Part shown: in pieces, positions 8,041 through 43,989 of the stretch
Layout of the letters: every line of letters starts with the position of its first letter
Numbering within the stretch: position 1 is the stretch's first letter
Source of the DNA: the human T2T-CHM13v2.0 reference genome, Homo sapiens
Strand: one strand, 5' to 3'
NCBI RefSeq assembly: GCF_009914755.1
Contig: NC_060947.1
DNA: 64,000 nucleotides
Program-made: the position numbers and the translations under genes
The notes under the pieces: generated by a model
Databases searched by the model: none
The model's input: the letters and a program-made list of their open reading frames with translations, nothing else
Told to the model about the DNA's origin: nothing

Positions 8041-11822
<3,782 letters not shown>

Positions 11823-11825
11823 AAA

Positions 11826-12330
11826 ATCTTGTATGCAAATGTTCATAGCAGCCTTATTATAGCAGCCAAAATGTGGAAGCAAACCAAATGTCTATTAACT
11901 AATAAATGGATAAATAAAATATAGTATAGTCATACAATGGAATATTATTCAGTTATGAAAAGCAATTAAATACTTCTTTTTGTTACAACGTGATGAACCT
12001 TAAAAACATTAGGCTAAGTGAAAAATGCCAGACACAAAGGCCGCATACTTTGTGATTCCATTTATTTGAAATGTCCAGACAACAAATCTATAGAGATAGA
12101 AAGGAGATTGATGGTTGTCAGAGTTTGGCAGAAAGGGGGATTAGGGAGTAATTGCTAATGGGTAAGAGGTTTTTCAGGGGGCTAATGAAAATACTTTAAA
12201 ATTAGGTAGTGACGATGGTTGTACAACAACTCTGTGAATATGATTTTAAAAATCACTTAATTGTGCAATTTAAATGAGCGAATTTTATGGTATGTGAAGT
12301 ATATCTTAATACAGCTTTTATAAATTAAAA
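11826..12330 (+). mobile_element. L1MB-type 3' end
   Basis: atgttcatagcagcc...ctaagtgaaaaatgccagacacaaaggcc...aattttatggtatgtgaagtatatcttaata. Confidence 0.75.
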
Positions 12331-14732: not shown

Positions 14733-15051
14733 CTCCTGGCCCAAGGAAGTTACACCTGAGGATCCTGAGTGACCATGTAACTTCCATATAATCACCAAAT
14801 ACTACTGTTAACTTCGAGAAATTATGAAAATCTCGATAGATACATTCTGGAAGTCTAGAATCAGGCAAGTATTCTAATTTTCAGTATGTACAAGAATACA
14901 TAAGTCAAATATAAAAAACAATCAGCTTGACGTTTATTCCTGGCAATATTCTAAAATGGAATATTAAATAGTTTGTGGGCACTTAGAAAAGGAAGTTGTG
15001 ATTTATTCAGAGCCAACATGGATTCACCAAGACCATGTCATGCCAAGTCTA
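14400..15051 (+). mobile_element. CR1/L3 LINE ORF2 (RT N-terminal part) relic
   Basis: Hand translation: KTPGPRKLHLRIL, TISLTFIPGNIL, SQHGFTKTMSCQ, matching CR1 RT KSPGPD.HPRVL / PVSLTS.PGK / SQHGF.K.KSC; 5' boundary approximate. Confidence 0.8.
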
Positions 15052-15059
15052 CATAAATC

Positions 15060-16085
15060 ACCCATAATTTGCCTCTAACTCCAACTGGTATATTTAGGAT
15101 CTTTTTAATTACCTATTATTTTTACATACTTGATATGTTATAAATTTGCAGTTTAATGTCTTTCTTTTTATTTAACATTATTTCTCTCAGTATTCATCCA
15201 ATAAATATGTATCTAATTTCTACTCTGTGCCAAACACTGTGTTGTGCTCTGAGCATAGAATGCTGAATTATAGGCCATTTCCCCACTTATTAAAATTTAT
15301 CCATATTCAAATTTAATATTTAAATATTTGAAATTTAATGTGAATGATAGCCTATTATGCATGTGTATCACTATTTAATTATCCTCCCAATTATGATTTT
15401 TTTAATTTTTTTGGCTATTATAAGCAATGTTATATTAAATATCCTGGCAACAAAGCTATTTTTGAGTTTTGAATTTTTCCTTGGGATGTATTTCTTAGAA
15501 ATGTGATTACAAAGTCAAGGGATATGAGCATTTTAATGCCCTTAATATATATTTCCAAATTGCTTCCTACAAAGGTATTACCAATTTCTAGTCCCATCAC
15601 TATAAGTGGATGTCCATTTCACTGAACACTTGCCAATACAGAGCATTTATTTCTCAGACAGATTGGTTAAAACAAATAATATGTTAATTTCAAAATTTGC
15701 AACTGTCTGAACAGCAGTGAGATTGTACTTCTTTTTTATATTTAACTATTACATTTAATCCCTCTTCTTTGATGTGTGTGATCATGTTTGTTGACAGTTT
15801 TTACTGGGCTTTAATGTTTTCTTAATGATTTGCATAAGCTCATATAATATATATGAAAATAACACTTTTCCAGTCATATTTTTTGTAAATGTTTCCCCAA
15901 TTTGTCTTTTTATGTTGCTTTTATATTTTTGGCATATGGAAGTTTTAAAAATCTATGGTCAAATCTATTGGTCTTCTCATTGATTTTTTTCCATTGCCTT
16001 TATACTTTAAAAGTCCTTTCCCATTCAAAGATTTAAAAAAAAACAAAAACTCTATTTATGTCTTTTTGTTATTTCATATTTTTAC
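15060..16085 (-). mobile_element. L1ME-type fragment (with small L2 piece ~15190-15290) inserted in CR1
   Basis: Antisense old-L1 text (ttttggctattataagcaatg...gtcaagggatatgagcatttt...ccaaattgct). Confidence 0.65.
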
Positions 16086-16190
16086 ACCTCATTTCCCTTT
16101 TAAATAGAGTAATTAGGCTGGAAGCTCATAGATGCACTTTAGACACAGTTTACCTGGATTTCCAGAAGACATTTGTGAAAATCTTCAATA
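16086..16190 (+). mobile_element. CR1/L3 RT continuation
   Basis: LISLLNRVIRLE...DTVYLDFQKTF resembles CR1 LISF.D.VT.LVD...D.VYLDFSKAFD; resumes where the 14400-15051 piece stops. Confidence 0.85.
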
Positions 16191-17068
16191 TCTGCCATCT
16201 CGCTGGCTATTTTCCTATGCTTACAATGATGTTCAATTTGTCCCTATTCTGAATGCAAAAATATTTTTTTAAAAAAAACTTTCTTAAAATGCTCTTCTTA
16301 CTTGACCTTCATGGCAAAATTGTCCTCTCTGGATTCTCCTGATTCCTCTTTTGACCATTCCTTCTGTTTTTGTTTTACCCCTTTTTTGGCACCTTAAAGG
16401 CTGGTGTTCCCTTAAATTCTGCCTTTAGTTAGCTACACAGTCTCTCTGGTGATTTCATCCACTATCATACCTTCAACTATCATCTACATGTGGATGTTCA
16501 CAGCTCAAATTTCTCCCATGAGTTCTACATCTTTATATACAAGTGTCCTCTGGACATACCCATCTGGTTGTCCTACTTGGGAACACGATGGATGATCTTT
16601 CACAAGCTGCCATCAACTTTTATTTACATAATTATCACCTTCAATTTGTCACTCAGTCCACCTTTTAGAATGTACGCACTTTACATTTCTCTCGTATTTA
16701 ATTATCAACATTTGCTAAATATGCCCAGCCTTGTTCTTCACACCGTACCTTTTGGATGCTGTTCTCCTTGCCTGAGACATCCTTTTTACAAACTCCTACT
16801 CATGTTTTCAAGACCCAGCGTAAATGCTAGTTCCTCAATTATGTCTTATTTATTTTTGTCATATGTGATTATTCCAGTTTCTGTATTCCCAAAATACTTT
16901 GTTTTTATTTCTTACCAAATTATATTTTAATTTATCCAATTAAATTTTGGTATTCTTTGACAGAATATGAGCTTCTAAAGAGTAGGGTACATGTTTGTAT
17001 CATTCTTATTGGCCCAGTATCTAGGATTTTACATATATAATTTGGCTCAATGAATGTCTATTGAACTA
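16190..17068 (+). mobile_element. L2 LINE fragment inserted in CR1
   Basis: Pyrimidine-rich L2 text ending ggctcaatgaatgtctattgaa. Confidence 0.7.
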
Positions 17069-18140: not shown

Positions 18141-18415
18141 ACTGTGTCTATTGTTGGCTATGCATTTTCTATGGGTTTTATATATATTAACATGTTTATG
18201 CCTTAAAATAACTCTATGAGGTATTTAATGTGTTGAGTCAGTCCTGTTTAATCACTGTCTTCAACCCTCTGTTGTAACATTCCAGGGAACACTCCACAAT
18301 TATTTTACTCATTCTGAATTATTTTGCTTTGAACTCCCACATTTAAATCTACCATTCTATTGGAGTCTATCTAGTAGGAACCATGGGATCACTTTATTAT
18401 TTTAAAAAGTCATTC

Positions 18416-18900
18416 TGTCACAGAGACACATGCACACATATGTTCATTGCAGCCCTATTCACAATAGCAAAGACAAGAAATCAACCTAAATGCCCATCAA
18501 TGGTAGACTGAATAAGGAAAATGTATGTATATACCATGGAATACTATGCAGCCATGAAAACAATGCAGTCATGTCTCTTATAGAAACATAGATGGAGCTG
18601 AAGGCCATTAACTAATGCAGGAACAGAAAACCAAATACCATATTTTCTCATTTACAAATGAGAGCTAAATGATGAGAACACATAAACACACAGAGGGAAA
18701 GAACAGACACTGGGGCCTACCACAGGGTGGAGGGGGCGGTGGGAGGAGGGAGAGGATCAGGAAAAATAACTAATTGGTACTAGGCTTAATACCTGGGTGA
18801 TGAAATAATCTGTATGGCAAACCCCCATGACACAAGTTTACCTATATAACACATGTGCACATGTACCCCTGAACTTAAAATAAAACTTAAATTAAAAAAC
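18416..18900 (+). mobile_element. L1PA15/16-type 3' end
   Basis: gacacatgcacacatatgttcattgcagc...gaggatcaggaaaaataacta...cctgaacttaaaataaaa. Confidence 0.85.
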
Positions 18901-21746: not shown

Positions 21747-22160
21747 CTTTTTCTTTTTTACCTTTTATTTTAAGTTCAGGGGTACACATGCAGGTTTGCT
21801 ACATAGGTAAACATGTGTCATGTGGGTTTGTTATGCCGATTATTTCTTCACCCAGGTATTAAGCCTAGTACACGTTAGTTATTTTTCCTGATCCTCTCCC
21901 TTCTCTGACCCTCTACCCTCTGGTAGGGACAGTGTGTGTTGTCTCTGTCTATGTGTCCATGTGTTCTCATCATTTAGCTCCCACTTATAAGTGAGCACAT
22001 GCAGTATTTGTTTTTCTGTCTCTGAATTACTTTGCTTAGGATAACGGCCTCCAGCTCCATCCATGTCCCTGCAAAGGACATAATCTATTTCTTTTTTATG
22101 GCTGCACAGTATTCTATGGTGTATATGTACCAAATTTTCTTAATTCAGTCTGTCATTGAT
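21747..22160 (-). mobile_element. L1PA15/16-type 3' end
   Basis: ttttattttaagttcaggggtacacatgcagg...ttatttttcctgatcctctccc... Confidence 0.85.
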
Positions 22161-23164
22161 AGTATTATTTTAAACTCTGTTAGTATGCATTTATACTAAC
22201 TCCCTTCAAAAGACAGTATTCCTCAGAAACATGTAAGTGTATCTTATTGGCTCATGACTGTTAGATAACTAATTTCAAAAGAGAATTTTCAATGATGATG
22301 GTCTGTAATCATAATTATATGGGAAGTTTAGAGGTAAAGAGTAAATTTTATGGATTTTAGATTTGCTTTTTATCTGGCAAAAACAACCACTCCCATCTAC
22401 CCCTGACTTCTTAATCGGGTGATTTACCATTTAATAAGAATTTCCACAACTTCATTAAAAATTTATATTTGATGTCTCAACAACCTGGATCCCTCCAGAA
22501 GCTCACTCTGTAGCCAGTTAAGCCCAAGCCAAAGAGCCACTGAACCGTGGGAATGAACCACTGACCATCCCTCACCAGAATAACGCTAAGGCAGGCCTGT
22601 GGTGACCTAAAACTCTGGGGCCTTCCCCATGGATAAAAAGCAGCACTGTGAAGCTTTTTCCTTGGTGTATATAGTCTTCTGAAGACCCGAAAGCATTAGT
22701 ATTGTTTCCAACATCATTTATCCTCTACACATTGAGTAATTAATACACTAACAGAAACCACTAAAAATATAAAAGCAAGCAATGTAAACCTATACAACTG
22801 TCTCATCTATAGTTTTGGAGAGATTATTTTAAACAAAGAGAGACACAAAAGTTAGCTTAATTTAAATACTGTTGTTTTCAGTCTCTGCTATCCTTTGTTG
22901 GCAGCAGAGAAACCCACATCAAAACCAAGATTTCTTCCTCCTTATAAAAGAGACATATATACACGATTCTTGCAAAGAAAAATTTCTCTTATCATATATC
23001 ATATTTTGGAAATGGAGCTCAGTATATCAAAGACAAATTGCTCTAGTGAGCTAGTCTTATAGTTCAAAATATATGAAAGAGAGGGAAAAAGAGGGGAGGA
23101 TGTCAGGTTACTAAATTTATAAATGTATAACTCAATGAGATTTTCCCAATTCTCACTAGATGTT

Positions 23165-25150
23165 CTAAGTTAGTATTGAATAGACCTGGTGGCTCTCATT
23201 GCCTTTGCACAGATTGTGTTCCAGCTGTCTTCCGATATTTGAACACTCAGGTCTTGGTCCCACGCTGTGCAAACAGTCAGCCTCCCATGTATTCTGTATA
23301 CCAGGAGTAATTTATTAATCCATCTATAAAGGCAATCACAGTGCATGCAAGAAAGGGTTATATAAAGCTCTAAAATTGAAAGAATTAGCTCCAGTAAACT
23401 TGGTACCAGTTCCAAACATCACTATTATGTTTGAGCTGATTTATAAATCCTGTGGATCTTTGTCTGGTAATCCATCACTTTTGTGAAGTTGGAAGAGGGA
23501 ACAAAAGTCTGGATGACACAGTTTCTGCATAAATCTCAAGCTGTTGCAATTTCTTTACCTTGTTGCTTCGTATTCACTAAATAACCTTGCAATTTGGGAT
23601 CTAAGACAAGTGGGAAGGAAAGATGGGCACTGTGAAATTCAGCCAGTGCCAACCAGGTGAGCATAAGATGAAACCTTCAAAATGCTTTTGTAATTTGTTA
23701 TCAATTGTACATCTGACGGAATTTCTTCAAGAGTGGCCCTGAGGGCCCATTAAAATAAAAATGGTTGCAATTTTAAGAAGAAACATAAAAGACTACACAC
23801 TGGGCACAGTGTACACTGCTCAGGTGATGGGTGCACCAAAATATCAGAAAGCATCACTAAAGAACTTATTCTTCTAACCAAACACCACCTGCTCCTGAAA
23901 AACTTATTGAAATAAAAAAATAAATCAAAAGAAATTTTTTAAAGCGAAGAAACAAACCAAAAAGCAAAATCCCAACTAGTTGCATTAGAATTCTCTTTTT
24001 GAATATTAAAAAAGAAGAAACAGCCATGTAATGGCTCAGAATGTTCTTTGGAGATTGTGGCCAGGCTTTGTTTATCTGGGCCTTTTCTCACCTGGCTCCA
24101 TCTTCATACACCTGCCACCAATGACACATCAGCTCATTCCTCCCATCCATGATTCTTCTTTGACAAGGAAAGATTTCAACTTAAGTTCCTGCAGCTCTGT
24201 TTTTTTAGCCTCTCTTTGCATCTTTTTCTCACGTCTTCTCTCCCAGTTCCACTTGAAGCTCTTTCTACTATCACCACCAATTAGTCTCTCATTGTAGTAC
24301 TTCCTTCTTCCACTCATATTCTGAATACACAATGCACCCCACTAGTACTTAATTAAGCAAAGTGCCTGTGTTTGCTCTGATTATACAATTTACAAGACCA
24401 ATAATCTGTGAACTATTTCTACATACCATGATTGTCAATTATGATTATGATTTATGATTATGATTCCACCTACTCATGATTGGTGAAAATTGTCATCAAT
24501 TCAGACATGCTATCTCCAACTGCAGTACCTTGACTGGGAATTTGGCCTGAACAACCAAGGCCTCCATGAATGAGAAAAGAAGGCATAATGTTCTTTGCTA
24601 CTCAATTATCTTTTTCACAACAGAAAAAATATAACTCTTTATGGAAATAGTGTAACACAAAAAATATAAACTGTTTTGAAAAGTATTCCTTATAACATCA
24701 TAGACAATTCAGAGTAAGTTACTGAACTTACCAATTCATATTCTCAGTTACTGCATAATTGTCGAGAAATATCACACTGAATGTGTGAAATTGGAGTTAG
24801 CTCTACTCTGGGTTTAATCATGGTTCTGGTACTAGTCAATGAAGCATCGAAAGTTGAGGTACACTGCTCTCGTCTTTGATAACATTTGGATAAAACATTG
24901 TTGCAGCACACATTACTTTACTTCCCACTACGTTTGCTTGTTTGTGTGTTTGCTTGTTTGATGTTATTAGACTATTTTTGTACTTAAGTGTATTCTTTCT
25001 GGCAAAAGTAATCCAAATTGTTATCCTTAAATTTGGCTGTTTCCCAAATCTGAAAGCTGTTAAGCATGTTTGTTCTTGTCAATCATGCTACAACATGTAA
25101 ACTGTTGATTATTTTCTTAATTCCAATGCCCAGAGAAGAAATTTAGCACT
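23165..25150 (-). pseudogene. Highly degenerate ORF2 relic of an ancient non-mammalian-type L1/Tx1 LINE
   Basis: Colinear hand-translated motifs: SLHV.SMI (YADD-like, 25081-25103), LTL..VIRNTF..LYFL, FFCCEKDN*VAKNIMPSFLIHGGLG, W...PLVLDP, KEI...DL, FQL...GLP, QLKH, WDQDL.VQISEDSWNTIC..TRSIQY. Confidence 0.6.
23787..23935 (+). mobile_element. L1PB-type 3' end fragment
   Basis: aaaagactacacactgggcacagtgtacactgctcaggtgatgggtgcaccaaaat...aaacaccacctg...gaaataaaaaa. Confidence 0.8.
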
Positions 25151-26313
25151 CTCTATTCTCACTTATGCTTTTACTCCCTAATCCAAATGCTCTCTCAGTA
25201 CTTTTCTTCCAGTGTCATCTCAATCCCAAGTTTTCCTAATGTCACTGCTTCCACTGCCAAATAAAGCAAAGAGATCTATTTCAGAGATTTTCAACATAAT
25301 GTTCCAATAATTTTGTCTCTCCCTCTTAAATCACTACAGATCTAACTATGTCTCATTCTCCTCCAGACCTAGTAACTAGATGACAACATACACCTTGAGA
25401 TCATTCCAAAGATGTCAATCATTTCAAATTTGGTAAATATGGAATCACTTGCTTAAAAGTCTGATGCAGCAGACGAAGAAATTTTGCTTGATTGGCTTCC
25501 CATTGTAGCTTAATTAACCAATCGTATTTTTCTTTTTCTAGGGACCGATACCATTCACTCTTCCCCTTTCTCCTCCATTCAGTCTGGAAAGAAATGGAAG
25601 TGGCATCAGCTTTCTCCTATACCCCACCTGCATACGTACCTTCTAAATTTTTATTCCTTTTCTCCACATTTCCTCTCTTCACCAACTGGCCCCAACTTTA
25701 GCTACCTCTGTCTCCTATTTGATTACAAATTTATCACAATGCCAAAATTATTCATGTGGGGGCACTATTCTCATCTTCCCCCTGCTTCCCTTCCTCTTTG
25801 TCTCCAACAGATCCTATCCTTGAATTTGAACCTACAAATAGTCATCTAGTTATACAGAGCCTCATTCTACTTAAGACTCTTCTCACACCACATGCTACAA
25901 GTACTTGGAAATACACACCACCTTCTCAACAATTCTGACATCCATTATTTAGGAATTTCACCATTCTCTCTAGGAACTGGCCTGAGGACACTTGTAATAT
26001 GAGACTAATAAATCTCATAGACAAACAGAACAAGTAAGGTGTGACTAAAAGTGACAATTTGAACATGTGCACAGTTTACGTCCTGTGGTCTATTCATTTT
26101 GGAAAAGCTTACTACGGTTCAGTTTTTAAACAAACTTTTATATATGGAATAATTTTAAATTTAGAGAAAAATTACAAAGCCATTACAGAAAGTTCCAATT
26201 ACTCCTCACCTAGTCTCCCCTACTATTAGCATCTACATAACCAGGATGCATTTGTCACAACTAAGGAAACAACTTTGGTACATTACTACTAACCGAATTC
26301 AAGACTTTATTCA

Positions 26314-29976: not shown

Positions 29977-31038
<1,062 letters not shown>

Positions 31039-38091: not shown

Positions 38092-39106
38092 ATGGGGAAA
38101 AAACAGAGAAGAAAAACCGGAAACTAAAAATCAGAGCGCCTCTCCTCCTCCAAAGGAATGCAGCTCCTCACCAGCAACAGAACGAAGCTGGACGGAGAAT
38201 GACTTTGACGAGGTGAAAGAGGAAGGCTTCAGAAGATCAAACTACTCCGAGCTAAAGGAGGAAGTTCGAACCAATGGCAAAGAAATTAAAAACTTTGAAA
38301 AAAAATTAGATGAATGGATAACTAGAATAACCAATGCAGAGAAGTCCTTAAAGGACCTGATGGAGCTGAAAACCACGGCATGAGAACTACGTGACGAACG
38401 CACAAGCCTCAGTAACCGATGCGATCAACTGGAAGAAAGGGTATCAGCAATGGAACACGAAATGAATGAAATGAAGTGTGAAGAGAAGTTTAGAGAAAAA
38501 AGAATAAAAAGAAACGAACAAAGCCTCCAAGAAATATGGGACTATGTGAAAAGACCAAATCTACCTCTGATTGGTGTACCTGAAAGTGACGTGGAGAATT
38601 GAACCAAGTTGGAAAATACTCTGCAGGATATTATCCAGGAGAACTTCCCCAATCTAGCAAGGCAGGCCAACATTCAAATTCAGGAAATACAGAGAACACC
38701 ACAAAGATACTCCTCAAGAAGAGCAACTCCAACACACATAATTGTCAGATTCACCAAAGTTGAAATCAAGGAAAAAATGTTAAGGGCAGCCAGAGAGAAA
38801 GGTCGGGTTACCCACAAAGGGAAACCCATCAGAGTAACAGCTGATCTCTTGGCAGAAACCCTACAAGCCAGAAGAGAGTGGGGGCCAATATTCAACATTC
38901 TTAAAGAAAAGAATTTTCAACCCAGAATTTCATATCCAGCCAAACTAAGCTTCATAAGTGAAGGAGAAATAAAATCCTTTACAGACAAGTAAATGCTGAG
39001 AGATTTTGTCACCACCAGGCCTGCCCTAAAAGAGCTCCTGAAGGAAGCACTAAAAATGGAAAGGAACAACCGGTACCAGCCACTGCAAAATCATGCCAAA
39101 TTGTAA
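38092..39106 (+). pseudogene. L1 ORF1p remnant
   Basis: atggggaaaaaacag start; frameshift near 38123; stops at 38381, 38600 and 38990; ENTLQDIIQENFPNLARQ...REKG...YPAKLSF. Confidence 0.92.
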
Positions 39107-39169
39107 AGACCATCGAGGCTAGGAAGAAACTGCATCAACTAACGAGCAAAATAACCAGCTAACATCATA

Positions 39170-42994
<3,825 letters not shown>

Positions 42995-43989
42995 ACAATG
43001 AGAACACATGGACACAGGAAGGGGAACATCACACACCGGGGACTGTTTTGGGGTGGGAGGAGTGGGGAGGGATAGCATTAGGAGATATACCTAATGCTAA
43101 ATGACGAGTTAATGGGTGCAGCACAGCAACATGGCACATGTATACATATGTAACTAACCTGCACGTTGTGCACATGTACCCTAAAACTTAAAGTATAATA
43201 ATAATAATAAAATAAAATAACAATAAATAAATAAATAAATAAACTGATATAGGAATCTGTGAGATAGCAAGGGAAAAGTTAGCTTAGTTGCAGAAGTATC
43301 TCAATACAACATATCCAAAATGGATAAATAAGATGAAACAAGGAGTGAAGCCAAATGCACATTTTGAAGCAAGTTATACTTGCTAGAAGGAAACAAATTT
43401 AGTTTCTAAGGAAATAGCAGCAAATATCAAAAGGGAAACATGTCCGTCTATGCAATTTTTATTGTCCTTGAGATTATTTTAAGCCATTCAGAGAAAGTAT
43501 CACTTTTCCTGTTATCAAGAGAAGAATTCATCTATGGTTCCTCTTTATGATGCTGTGAAATGTAGTAAAGAACACTAAACAGCAACCTTCCATGAAATAC
43601 AACAACTACTTTCAAGGGGTAGTTCATTACAATATTCCTTATATAAGGACTTCAAGCCTGTACTTTTTTTTTTGTCCACCCTGCCCAAGCCTATACTTTC
43701 TGATGATTAGCTGAATAGAGCTATGGAGCTATTCTATCATGCTCATTTAAATGCAGAGGTACATGTTATATATTGTCCAAGGACACCCACCTTAATAGAA
43801 GAAAACCATAAGTCTGTCTGGGGGCATGCCAAGAAAGTATTACAGGCAAGTCAGAGGTTGTCTCATTTAAAAATTTGGCTACCCTGGGAAACAAATGGAA
43901 GATCAAAGCTACAATAATTTTAATCTGTAAAAAACAATATAAGTACATATGTGTAACCAAATACCCACCTAACTATAAAGCCAACCTTG

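What the first reader, a model, noticed from the sequence alone, without database searches (positions are those of the whole stretch)
23165..25150. Fossil ORF2 of a fish/amphibian-type L1/Tx1 LINE hidden in apparently unique DNA
Seen by hand translation of the minus strand, in order: GIGIK..SLHV.SMI (25081-25130; cf. GI.I..KISLYADDML); QFG (~25015); LTL..VIRNTFQNSLYFLCYTI (24650-24718; cf. LSL.GR..IK....LYLFQ.IP); FFCCEKDN*VAKNIMPSFLIHGGLG (24554-24628). That last motif has the spacing of FIW..K.PRI....L..PK..GGL, with TGA at the Arg position as expected from CpG decay. After an L1PB insert come LTW...FPLVLDPKL...KEIATA*DL, SLFQLHKSDGLPDKD, QLKH, LYRW and AWDQDLSVQISEDSWNTIC...TRSIQY*L (cf. 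WE.DL...IS...W..IC...S.N.R..LIQ). From my recollection of the families, this C-terminal architecture is typical of non-mammalian vertebrate L1/Tx1 and is absent from mammalian L1 ORF2 such as the copy at 39170-42994. Inference: a pre-eutherian LINE lineage still readable over ~2 kb, so possibly under constraint (exapted element or dead domesticated gene). It may partly match a catalogued ancient family such as MARE6 or an X-LINE, or be unannotated. It is frameshifted, so not an intact gene.
Basis: partly seen in the sequence, partly recalled or inferred. Interest (0 to 1): 0.8.

Follow-up and report, generated by a model that had tools for sequence, protein, structure and literature searches.

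The report
Claimed ancient LINE fossil, not substantiated

Summary
All quoted peptide strings exist on the minus strand at about the stated places. They are spread over all three frames, each with 54-58 stops per ~900 codons.

The insert is real: 23785-23940 is a 3'-UTR piece of an older L1, sense on the + strand.

No test linked the rest to a LINE:
- Pfam and PDB on all six frames, and phmmer of the C-terminal 226 codons against 1.84 billion proteins, gave no LINE hit.
- Two word-indexed searches, hhalign and tblastn with the window's own L1 ORF2 also gave none.
- Colinear chains and frameshift alignments scored no better than reversed, shuffled or neighbouring DNA.
- Positive controls worked.

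The only significant hits are short ORFs from unnamed metagenome contigs. They are orthologous DNA covering 22860-23415, read in different frames, so coding constraint is not shown. The locus is single-copy in the human genome at the sensitivity used.

The decisive comparison, against fish or frog L1/Tx1 ORF2, could not be run because no such reference was reachable. The identity claim is therefore neither proven nor refuted; I give it about 0.4.

Even if true, it would be one more of the L1 and L1-Tx1 protein fossils catalogued by Frith 2022. Low interest.

The parts
23165..23676 (-). Stretch holding the C-terminal-like strings (LTW..FPLVLDPKL, SLFQLHKSDGLPDKD, QLKH, LYRW, AWDQDLSVQISEDSWNTIC..SIQY-stop), spread over three frames. 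This is the only part where a LINE origin remains a live lead.
   Evidence: Strings read. No hit other than orthologous ORFs in phmmer against 1.84 billion proteins. No family or structure match. Single-copy in the assembly.
23170..23418 (-). 82-aa stop-to-stop ORF containing AWDQDLSVQISEDSWNTICAKAMRATRSIQY. It is the longest open stretch of the finding.
   Evidence: Own-genome protein search gives itself plus 5 matches at E 0.86-6.1; the best of these, L003, is unrelated GC-rich DNA. The human TAA after SIQY is K in P0006, P0008, P0010 and P0011, and Y in P0005.
22860..23415 (-). Extent over which short ORFs from unnamed metagenome contigs (P0005, P0006, P0008, P0009, P0010, P0011) match the window. 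They represent orthologous non-coding DNA of other species.
   Evidence: tblastn of the six proteins on the window gives 49-70% identity over the main pieces. P0009 needs three human frames in succession, and human stops lie inside most matches. In the human assembly the proteins hit only this locus significantly. Sources are 'lgn' and 'ena', on contigs of 584-4108 bp, with no names.
23785..23940 (+). Heavily 5'-truncated insertion of an older L1. It is a 3'-UTR fragment, sense on the + strand, lying inside NCBI's masked stretch 23744-23969.
   Evidence: 1647 candidates, and 39 scored non-self matches at 84-91% identity covering query bases about 46-200 of 23740-23975; in L041 and L042 the matching piece lies 82-88 bp 3' of the last ORF2 residues. 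It has no similarity to the window's L1PA copy at 38599-43250.
23970..25150 (-). Stretch holding the claimed RT-box and FIW/GGL strings. No evidence of LINE origin was found.
   Evidence: Pfam RVT_1 and all other families are absent in three frames at E<=10. PDB shows no ORF2p. tblastn with the L1 RT and C-terminal pieces gives only E 0.05-5 noise on both strands. It is unique in the assembly. The 70-aa ORF at 24129-24341 finds only itself.

Best explanation
The finding is ordinary, old, single-copy intergenic DNA of a gene-poor part of the X chromosome. It is interrupted by a small 5'-truncated L1 3'-end insertion at 23785-23940 on the + strand. The peptide-like strings are real letters. Their likeness to LINE ORF2 motifs is a motif-level resemblance picked across three frames, and it cannot be told apart from chance with any reference available here. 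The stretch is shared with other species as non-coding DNA that drifts by substitutions and indels. It encodes nothing and shows no sign of coding constraint. Shown: the strings, the insert, single-copy status, orthologous copies in shifting frames, and the absence of detectable LINE homology. Inferred: that the resemblance is coincidental rather than a relic too decayed to score.
For: 1. No protein family in any of six frames, although RVT_1 scores 1e-35 on the window's L1 RT.

2. No LINE or transposase chain in PDB for six frames or for the ortholog profile. An old L1 piece at 10709-11440 hits ORF2p at 2e-84.

3. phmmer of 22999-23676 against 1.84 billion proteins found 7 hits at E<=0.001. 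Two are identical to the query; five are orthologous short ORFs. None is LINE-like.

4. Word-indexed searches among longer proteins found none at E<=10, out of 204 and 3178 candidates.

5. Tests against the window's L1 ORF2:
- tblastn finds 13 HSPs at E<=1e-3 elsewhere in the window and none in 22800-25500.
- hhalign gives P=0.16.
- Smith-Waterman shuffle p ranges from 0.03 to 0.47.
- Loose chains: 28, 31 and 9 of 54 control tiles reach the target.
- Tight chains over 18 settings give z 0.14-1.78. The reversed, non-complemented target scores higher than the target in 11 of 18.

6. Minus-strand AT skew is 0.03 and 0.10, against 0.27-0.34 in L1 sense strands and -0.04 +/- 0.10 in background.

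7. No CX2-3CX6-10HX3-5C knuckle lies in 22300-25500. The pattern is found in both L1 controls.

8. Orthologous ORFs need different frames.
Against: The decisive reference set, fish, frog or turtle L1/Tx1 ORF2 or Dfam, was never compared, so a true relic at about 30-35% identity over 30-60 residues would have been missed by everything above.

The most permissive frameshift alignment (gap 5, shift 5) put the target above all 60 dinucleotide shuffles (z 2.5), above its reversed versions (392 against 353 and 347), and above 50 of 54 real tiles.

The target has 23 ungapped HSPs of score >=28 to L1 ORF2, against 13.6 +/- 3.8 in 42 L1-free tiles. Two of 42 tiles reach 23. The target has 9 HSPs of score >=32, and no tile reaches that. 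They lie on scattered diagonals, though.

In four of six orthologous ORFs the human stop after SIQY is a lysine, giving I(Q/K)YK. By my own recollection (no call) that is closer to the IQ[YF]K motif of non-mammalian L1 ORF2. Also by recollection only, W..DL...IS.ED.W and F.S.FQL.....LP resemble strings of fish and frog L1 ORF2 in the right order.

Pfam's negative is weak. It also missed a 59%-identical old L1 RT piece, and it has no model for the ORF2 C-terminal third.
Confidence: 0.5

Rival explanations
1. About 0.5 kb (roughly 23165-23700, minus strand) is a genuine, extremely decayed relic of the C-terminal part of an L1-clade ORF2 of the non-mammalian type. It was inserted before the eutherian radiation and has drifted neutrally since. 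The upstream RT and FIW readings are over-interpretation or too decayed to score.
For: The strings lie in a consistent order on one strand.

Ortholog ORFs restore a lysine at the human TAA (I(Q/K)YK in 4 of 6) and read INYSWY...TAWD in one frame where human is frameshifted.

The stretch is not a recognisable mammalian L1, which fits the claim.

Frith 2022 reports 137 L1 and 12 L1-Tx1 pre-amniote protein fossils in human, mostly missed by RepeatMasker and often in gene deserts (PMC9004415, sections 9 and 10 read). The prior is therefore not small.

The permissive alignment excess (z 2.5) and the HSP excess point weakly the same way.

Against: There is no significant hit in any search.

Beyond I(Q/K)YKL the expected continuation and the zinc knuckle are absent, also in the ortholog ORFs.

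I produced an equally 'striking' ten-motif colinear chain to mammalian L1. It proved to be at chance level once reversed and shuffled controls were run, which shows how easily such chains arise in three frames.

No paralogous fossil was found in the genome.
Confidence: 0.38
2. The stretch from about 24257 to about 23130 (minus strand) is a very old 5'-truncated copy of a mammalian-lineage L1 (an L1M-type family). It is too diverged for tblastn with an L1PA protein. That would make it an ordinary catalogued repeat and would refute the reader.
For: A tight colinear chain of ten weak HSPs runs from L1 FIWNQKR to [15 protein letters not shown] (ORF2 d+e residues 297-459). It crosses the excised insert without a break. 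[12 protein letters not shown] against WDQDLSVQISED lies on nearly the same diagonal. The permissive alignment gives z 2.5.
Against: The chain score is within controls: 3 of 40 shuffles and 14 of 54 tiles reach it. Over 18 settings z is 0.14-1.78, and the reversed sequence does as well.

There is no A-rich sense strand. The conserved ORF2 C-terminal blocks and knuckle are missing downstream. The fossil ORFs find no L1 copy among the genome's L1s.

The L1 ORF2 end at 21977-22159 is far better preserved (62% identity) and wrongly spaced, so it is a separate element.
Confidence: 0.08
3. The relic, or the DNA whatever its origin, is held by selection as an exapted regulatory element or a dead domesticated gene.
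For: Copies of the stretch exist in at least six other unnamed sources, with 49-70% identity in translation. Frith 2022 finds that very old fossils are often conserved and lie in gene deserts.
Against: The orthologous ORFs differ by frameshifts and their own stops.

By my hand count on the alignment of P0005, the 'motif' core is no better kept (20 of 33 residues) than the flank downstream (23 of 31).

Identity levels are those expected of alignable neutral DNA among related mammals, but the species are unknown, so depth cannot be judged.

No RefSeq functional element lies here (hub annotation).
Confidence: 0.03

Closest known systems
Pre-amniote L1 and L1-Tx1 protein fossils of the human genome (Frith 2022, Mol Biol Evol, PMC9004415)
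   Same: It is the same proposed kind of object: a short, frameshifted, stop-ridden relic of a non-mammalian-type LINE ORF2 in a gene-poor region, not annotated as a repeat. Table 5 of that paper lists 137 L1 fossils (22 already in RepeatMasker) and 12 L1-Tx1 fossils.
   Different: Those fossils passed a genome-wide E-value threshold in a frameshift-aware DNA-protein search and were dated by inter-genome alignment. This one passed no significance test here. The fossil list is on Zenodo and GitHub and could not be consulted. The held supplement has no chrX entry.
Mammalian L1 ORF2 (the window's L1PA copy at 39155-42994; human ORF2p structures 8UW3, 8SXT, 9K6G)
   Same: The claimed motif order (FIW..K, GG, W..D...S.ED, Q.K) also exists in the window's own L1 ORF2: [33 protein letters not shown].
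   Different: There is no significant similarity. tblastn, hhalign, Smith-Waterman, chains and frameshift alignment all stay within controls. No PDB ORF2p hit was found, while an old L1 piece scores 2e-84. The A-rich sense strand and the CCHC knuckle are absent.
Repbase ancient human LINE families MARE6 (Tx1 clade) and X9_LINE (L1 clade) (Kojima 2018, PMC5753468, passages read)
   Same: Their existence shows that Tx1-clade traces in human are already known.
   Different: The locus is single-copy at BLAST and HMMER sensitivity, which neither fits nor excludes a very old family.
5'-truncated L1 3'-end insertions
   Same: Window 23785-23940 matches the stretch just 3' of ORF2 in other L1 copies at 84-91% identity and is followed by an A-rich run on the + strand.
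   Different: Nothing unusual. The subfamily was not determined.

Membership tests
L1-clade ORF2 (any lineage) | Reverse-transcriptase domain (Pfam RVT_1) upstream of the C-terminal region | tested here: not met
   No family at E<=10 in three minus-strand frames of 22801-25500. RVT_1 scores 1e-35 on the window's L1 RT. It scores nothing on a 111-aa old L1 RT piece of 59% identity, so the test is weak for decayed pieces.
L1-clade ORF2 (any lineage) | Significant colinear translated similarity to an L1 ORF2 protein | tested here: not met
   Tested against the window's L1PA ORF2 only. There is no tblastn HSP at E<=1e-3 in the region, against 13 elsewhere. Chains give z 0.14-1.78 and the reversed control does as well. 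Frameshift alignment gives z 0.68-2.49 over four settings.
L1-clade ORF2 (any lineage) | C-terminal CCHC zinc knuckle | tested here: not met
   The regex C.{2,3}C.{6,10}H.{3,5}C has no match in three minus frames of 22300-25500. It finds [18 protein letters not shown] in both L1 controls. Loss is expected in an old fossil, so this is weak evidence.
Mammalian L1 | A-rich sense strand | tested here: not met
   Sense-strand AT skew is 0.03 (23165-23743) and 0.10 (23970-25150). L1PA has 0.34, an old L1 0.27 and the L1 at 30196-31005 0.29. Background is -0.04 +/- 0.10.
   No such protein could be fetched. Protein libraries returned only orthologous ORFs. Collection scans found none. The held FASTA supplement of PMC5381506 is cut at 400 characters per sequence.
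Interspersed repeat family (Dfam/Repbase, e.g. MARE6, X9_LINE, L1M) | Other copies in the same genome | tested here: not met
   DNA queries 23165-23740 and 23970-25200 hit only themselves. Protein queries (the 82-aa, 70-aa and 46-aa ORFs, P0005, P0010) hit only this locus below E 0.1. Copies of a family diverged by more than about 30% each would escape these searches.
Exapted or domesticated TE sequence | Reading frame kept open across species | tested here: not met
   P0009 matches the human stretch in frames -1, -2 and -3 in turn. P0005, P0008 and P0011 leave the human frame within the stretch. Human stops lie inside most matches.
Exapted or domesticated TE sequence | Conservation above the neutral level, or presence outside eutherians | not testable with these tools
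   The orthologous ORFs come from unnamed short metagenome contigs. No vertebrate genome other than the window's own is searchable.

The most novel reading that the evidence does not exclude
Window 23165-23700 is a relic of the C-terminal part of a fish- or amphibian-type L1-clade ORF2. It would have entered the lineage before the eutherian radiation, still be legible as W..DL...IS.ED.W..IC...I(Q/K)YK after ancestral correction, and be absent from repeat annotation. It would add one locus to the evidence that non-mammalian L1 lineages lived in mammalian ancestors.
Probability: 0.38. Interest if true: 0.3.

Novelty: not a real feature. Interest (0 to 1): 0.12.

Why it matters
If the relic were real, it would be one more witness to the diverse LINE lineages of early vertebrates that died out in mammals. 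It would also be a small test case for how far back protein fossils stay readable. That question was already opened genome-wide by Frith 2022, with 137 L1 and 12 L1-Tx1 pre-amniote fossils in human, so a single further neutral fragment changes little.

The practical lesson is methodological. Hand-read motif chains over three frames reach impressive-looking colinearity by chance. I reproduced this effect against mammalian L1 and saw it vanish under reversed-sequence controls. Such findings need a scored, frameshift-aware search before they are believed.

Tried and rejected
1. Pfam on six frames and on the ortholog ORFs: nothing.

2. PDB by phmmer on six frames and by hmmsearch with the ortholog profile: only unrelated hits at E 0.2-3.

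3. ESM Atlas with the 82-aa ORF and with P0005: no usable hit, with recognition 1250 and 1218, well below known families.

4. Attempts to obtain a fish or frog L1/Tx1 ORF2 reference all failed:
- Word-indexed protein searches.
- IMG/VR with the ortholog profile: 48 pattern matches, none confirmed.
- IMG/VR with the L1 RT piece and with a back-translated RT motif: only one contig, carrying a mammalian-type L1 at 66% identity.
- The one GTDB scan, with a recalled motif: 9 matches, about the chance expectation, none with LINE similarity.
- IMG/VR with a second recalled motif: 0 matches.
- Paper full-text searches for recalled peptide words: 0 papers each.
- The FASTA supplement of PMC5381506: cut at 400 characters.
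- The supplement list of PMC5203782 was seen but not opened.

5. The PF00078 search of the own genome, to see whether the control genomes include vertebrates: they are prokaryotes.

6. Paralog hunt in the human assembly: only weak hits, and the best (L003) is unrelated GC-rich DNA.

7. I first took a ten-HSP colinear chain to mammalian L1 as a sign of an old L1M. I rejected it after the 18-setting grid with 150 shuffles and a reversed control.

8. I first read weak minus-strand tblastn hits inside the insert as an L1 ORF2 piece. I rejected that: the insert is 3'-UTR sequence on the + strand.

10. Structure prediction and complex prediction were not tried. A 70-residue helical fragment with six near-identical rows would not discriminate.
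Full report
**What is there.** The window is human T2T chrX:98456001-98520000 (hub note). I read 22800-25500 on the minus strand and translated all three frames.
- The strings sit in all three frames, so the proposed protein needs repeated frame changes.
- Each frame carries 54-58 stops per ~900 codons.
- The longest open stretch is an 82-aa stop-to-stop ORF at 23170-23418, which holds AWDQDLSVQISEDSWNTIC...SIQY.

**The insert.**
- Window 23785-23940 matches a high-copy repeat: 1647 first-look candidates, 40 scored, and the 39 non-self matches are 84-91% identical.
- In two other copies the matching piece lies directly 3' of the last residues of an L1 ORF2.
- It has no similarity to the window's L1PA copy.
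- It is therefore a 3'-UTR fragment of an older L1, sense on the + strand and followed there by an A-rich run. The subfamily name could not be checked.

**Searches for any protein relative.**
- Pfam finds no family at E<=10 in six frames or in the ortholog ORFs.
- PDB, which holds human ORF2p and many transposases and reverse transcriptases, gives only unrelated hits at E 0.2-3 for six frames and for an ortholog profile.
- Controls worked. RVT_1 scores 1e-35 on the window's L1 RT, and an old L1 piece at 10709-11440 hits ORF2p at 2e-84.
- Pfam also missed a 59%-identical old L1 RT fragment, and it has no model for the C-terminal third of ORF2. Its silence is therefore weak evidence.
- phmmer of the read-through 22999-23676 against 1.84 billion proteins returned 7 hits at E<=0.001. 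Two are identical to the query, and five are short ORFs of 52-71% identity.
- Two word-indexed searches among longer proteins scored nothing at E<=10 out of 204 and 3178 candidates.
- The ESM Atlas gave nothing.

**What the hits are.**
- The short ORFs (P0005, P0006, P0008-P0011) come from unnamed metagenome contigs of 584-4108 bp.
- Mapped back, they cover window 22860-23415, beyond the claimed element.
- P0009 needs three human frames in turn, and others leave the human frame within the stretch.
- In the human assembly they hit only this locus significantly.
- They are orthologous non-coding DNA of other species, called as genes by metagenome pipelines.
- They show that the stretch is shared among several species. 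They do not show that a frame is maintained.
The human TAA after SIQY is a lysine in four of the six ORFs, giving I(Q/K)YK.

**Single-copy status.** DNA queries for 23165-23740 and 23970-25200 find only themselves in the 3.1-Gb assembly. The 82-, 70- and 46-aa ORFs find only themselves plus noise, and the best such hit is unrelated GC-rich DNA. Members of a very old family would escape these searches.

**Comparison with the only LINE reference I could obtain, the window's own L1PA ORF2.**
- tblastn finds 13 HSPs at E<=1e-3 in other parts of the window (8422-11984 +, 18407-18562 +, 21977-22159 -, 30196-31005 -) and none in 22800-25500.
- hhalign of the ortholog profile against the ORF2 C-terminal piece gives P=0.16.
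- Smith-Waterman with shuffles gives p 0.03-0.47.
- A tight chaining of weak ungapped HSPs produced a ten-motif colinear series that looked striking. It ran FIWNQKR/FKWNWER ... [20 protein letters not shown] ... and crossed the excised insert.
- The chain does not survive controls. 3 of 40 shuffles and 14 of 54 neighbouring tiles reach its score.
- Over 18 parameter settings with 150 dinucleotide shuffles, z is 0.14-1.78. The reversed, non-complemented target, which cannot be homologous, scores higher than the target in 11 of 18 settings.
- A frameshift-aware dynamic-programming alignment gives z 0.68, 0.79, 1.34 and 2.49 at four settings.
- At the most permissive setting the target (392) exceeds its reversed versions (353, 347) and 50 of 54 real tiles. 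One tile without detectable L1 scores 421.
- The target has more HSPs of score >=28 than L1-free tiles: 23 against 13.6 +/- 3.8, with 2 of 42 tiles reaching 23. These lie on scattered diagonals, and the counts correlate with strand A-richness.
- Sense-strand AT skew is 0.03 and 0.10, against 0.27-0.34 in L1s.
- No CCHC knuckle is present.

I conclude that the stretch is not a recognisable mammalian-type L1, and that weak colinear motif chains arise here by chance.

**What could not be done.** I could not obtain any such sequence.
- By my own recollection, which is a lead and not evidence, W..DL...IS.ED.W, IQ[YF]K and F.SF.QL.....LP do resemble strings of non-mammalian L1 ORF2 and occur here in the right order.
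- That is why I keep the rival at 0.38.
- After I(Q/K)YKL the expected continuation is missing, also in the orthologs.

**Literature.**
- Kojima 2018 (PMC5753468, passages) lists MARE6 as the Tx1-clade family and X9_LINE as an L1-clade family among human repeats.
- Frith 2022 (PMC9004415; outline and sections 5, 6, 9, 10 and 25 read) found 137 L1 and 12 L1-Tx1 pre-amniote protein fossils in human with a frameshift-aware search. They are mostly new relative to RepeatMasker and often lie in gene deserts.
The held supplement has no chrX entry.
- The proposed kind of object is therefore already described. Whether this interval is in that catalogue is open.

**Verdict.** For the interpretation I cannot tell. 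There is no support from any runnable test, the constraint claim is unsupported, and the RT part is over-read, yet the decisive reference comparison is missing. Interest is low either way.

Noticed in passing
window 8422-11984 (+): An older L1 running from the endonuclease region to the ORF2 end, with 37-64% aa identity to the window's L1PA in 10 tblastn HSPs. Only three short pieces of it appear in the hub's list of masked stretches, so that list is not a repeat annotation, and 'unmasked' does not mean unique.
   Followed up: partly
window 21977-22159 (-): The last 61 residues of an L1 ORF2 (62% identity, E 4e-18) lie on the same strand just downstream of the finding. Preservation and spacing show that it is a separate, younger 5'-truncated L1, not the 3' end of the proposed fossil.
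   Followed up: partly
window 30196-31005 (-) and 18407-18562 (+): Two further L1 ORF2 C-terminal fragments, at 95% and 72% aa identity to the L1PA copy.
   Followed up: no
window 15001-16875 (-): This tile has no tblastn-detectable L1. It still scores above the finding in the permissive frameshift alignment to L1 ORF2 (421 against 392) and in the tight chain (121 against 64). It may hold a very old L1 fragment, or it may show the spread of the noise.
   Followed up: no
proteins P0004-P0011: Public metagenome protein libraries hold 'proteins' that are ORFs of mammalian non-coding DNA. Two are letter-identical to this human stretch. This is host DNA in metagenomes called as genes. It is useful as an accidental source of orthologous sequence, but it is a trap for homology counts.
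   Followed up: partly
P0010 residues about 57-140: After ...SIKYKLRK this ortholog ORF carries about 80 residues of different composition with no match in the human locus. It probably reflects a lineage-specific insertion.
   Followed up: no
window 24129-24341 (-): A 70-aa lysine- and glutamate-rich open stretch (..RRREKKMQREAKKTELQELKLKS..). It produces several off-diagonal HSPs to L1 ORF2 and inflates motif-style matches. It has no relative in the genome search.
   Followed up: partly
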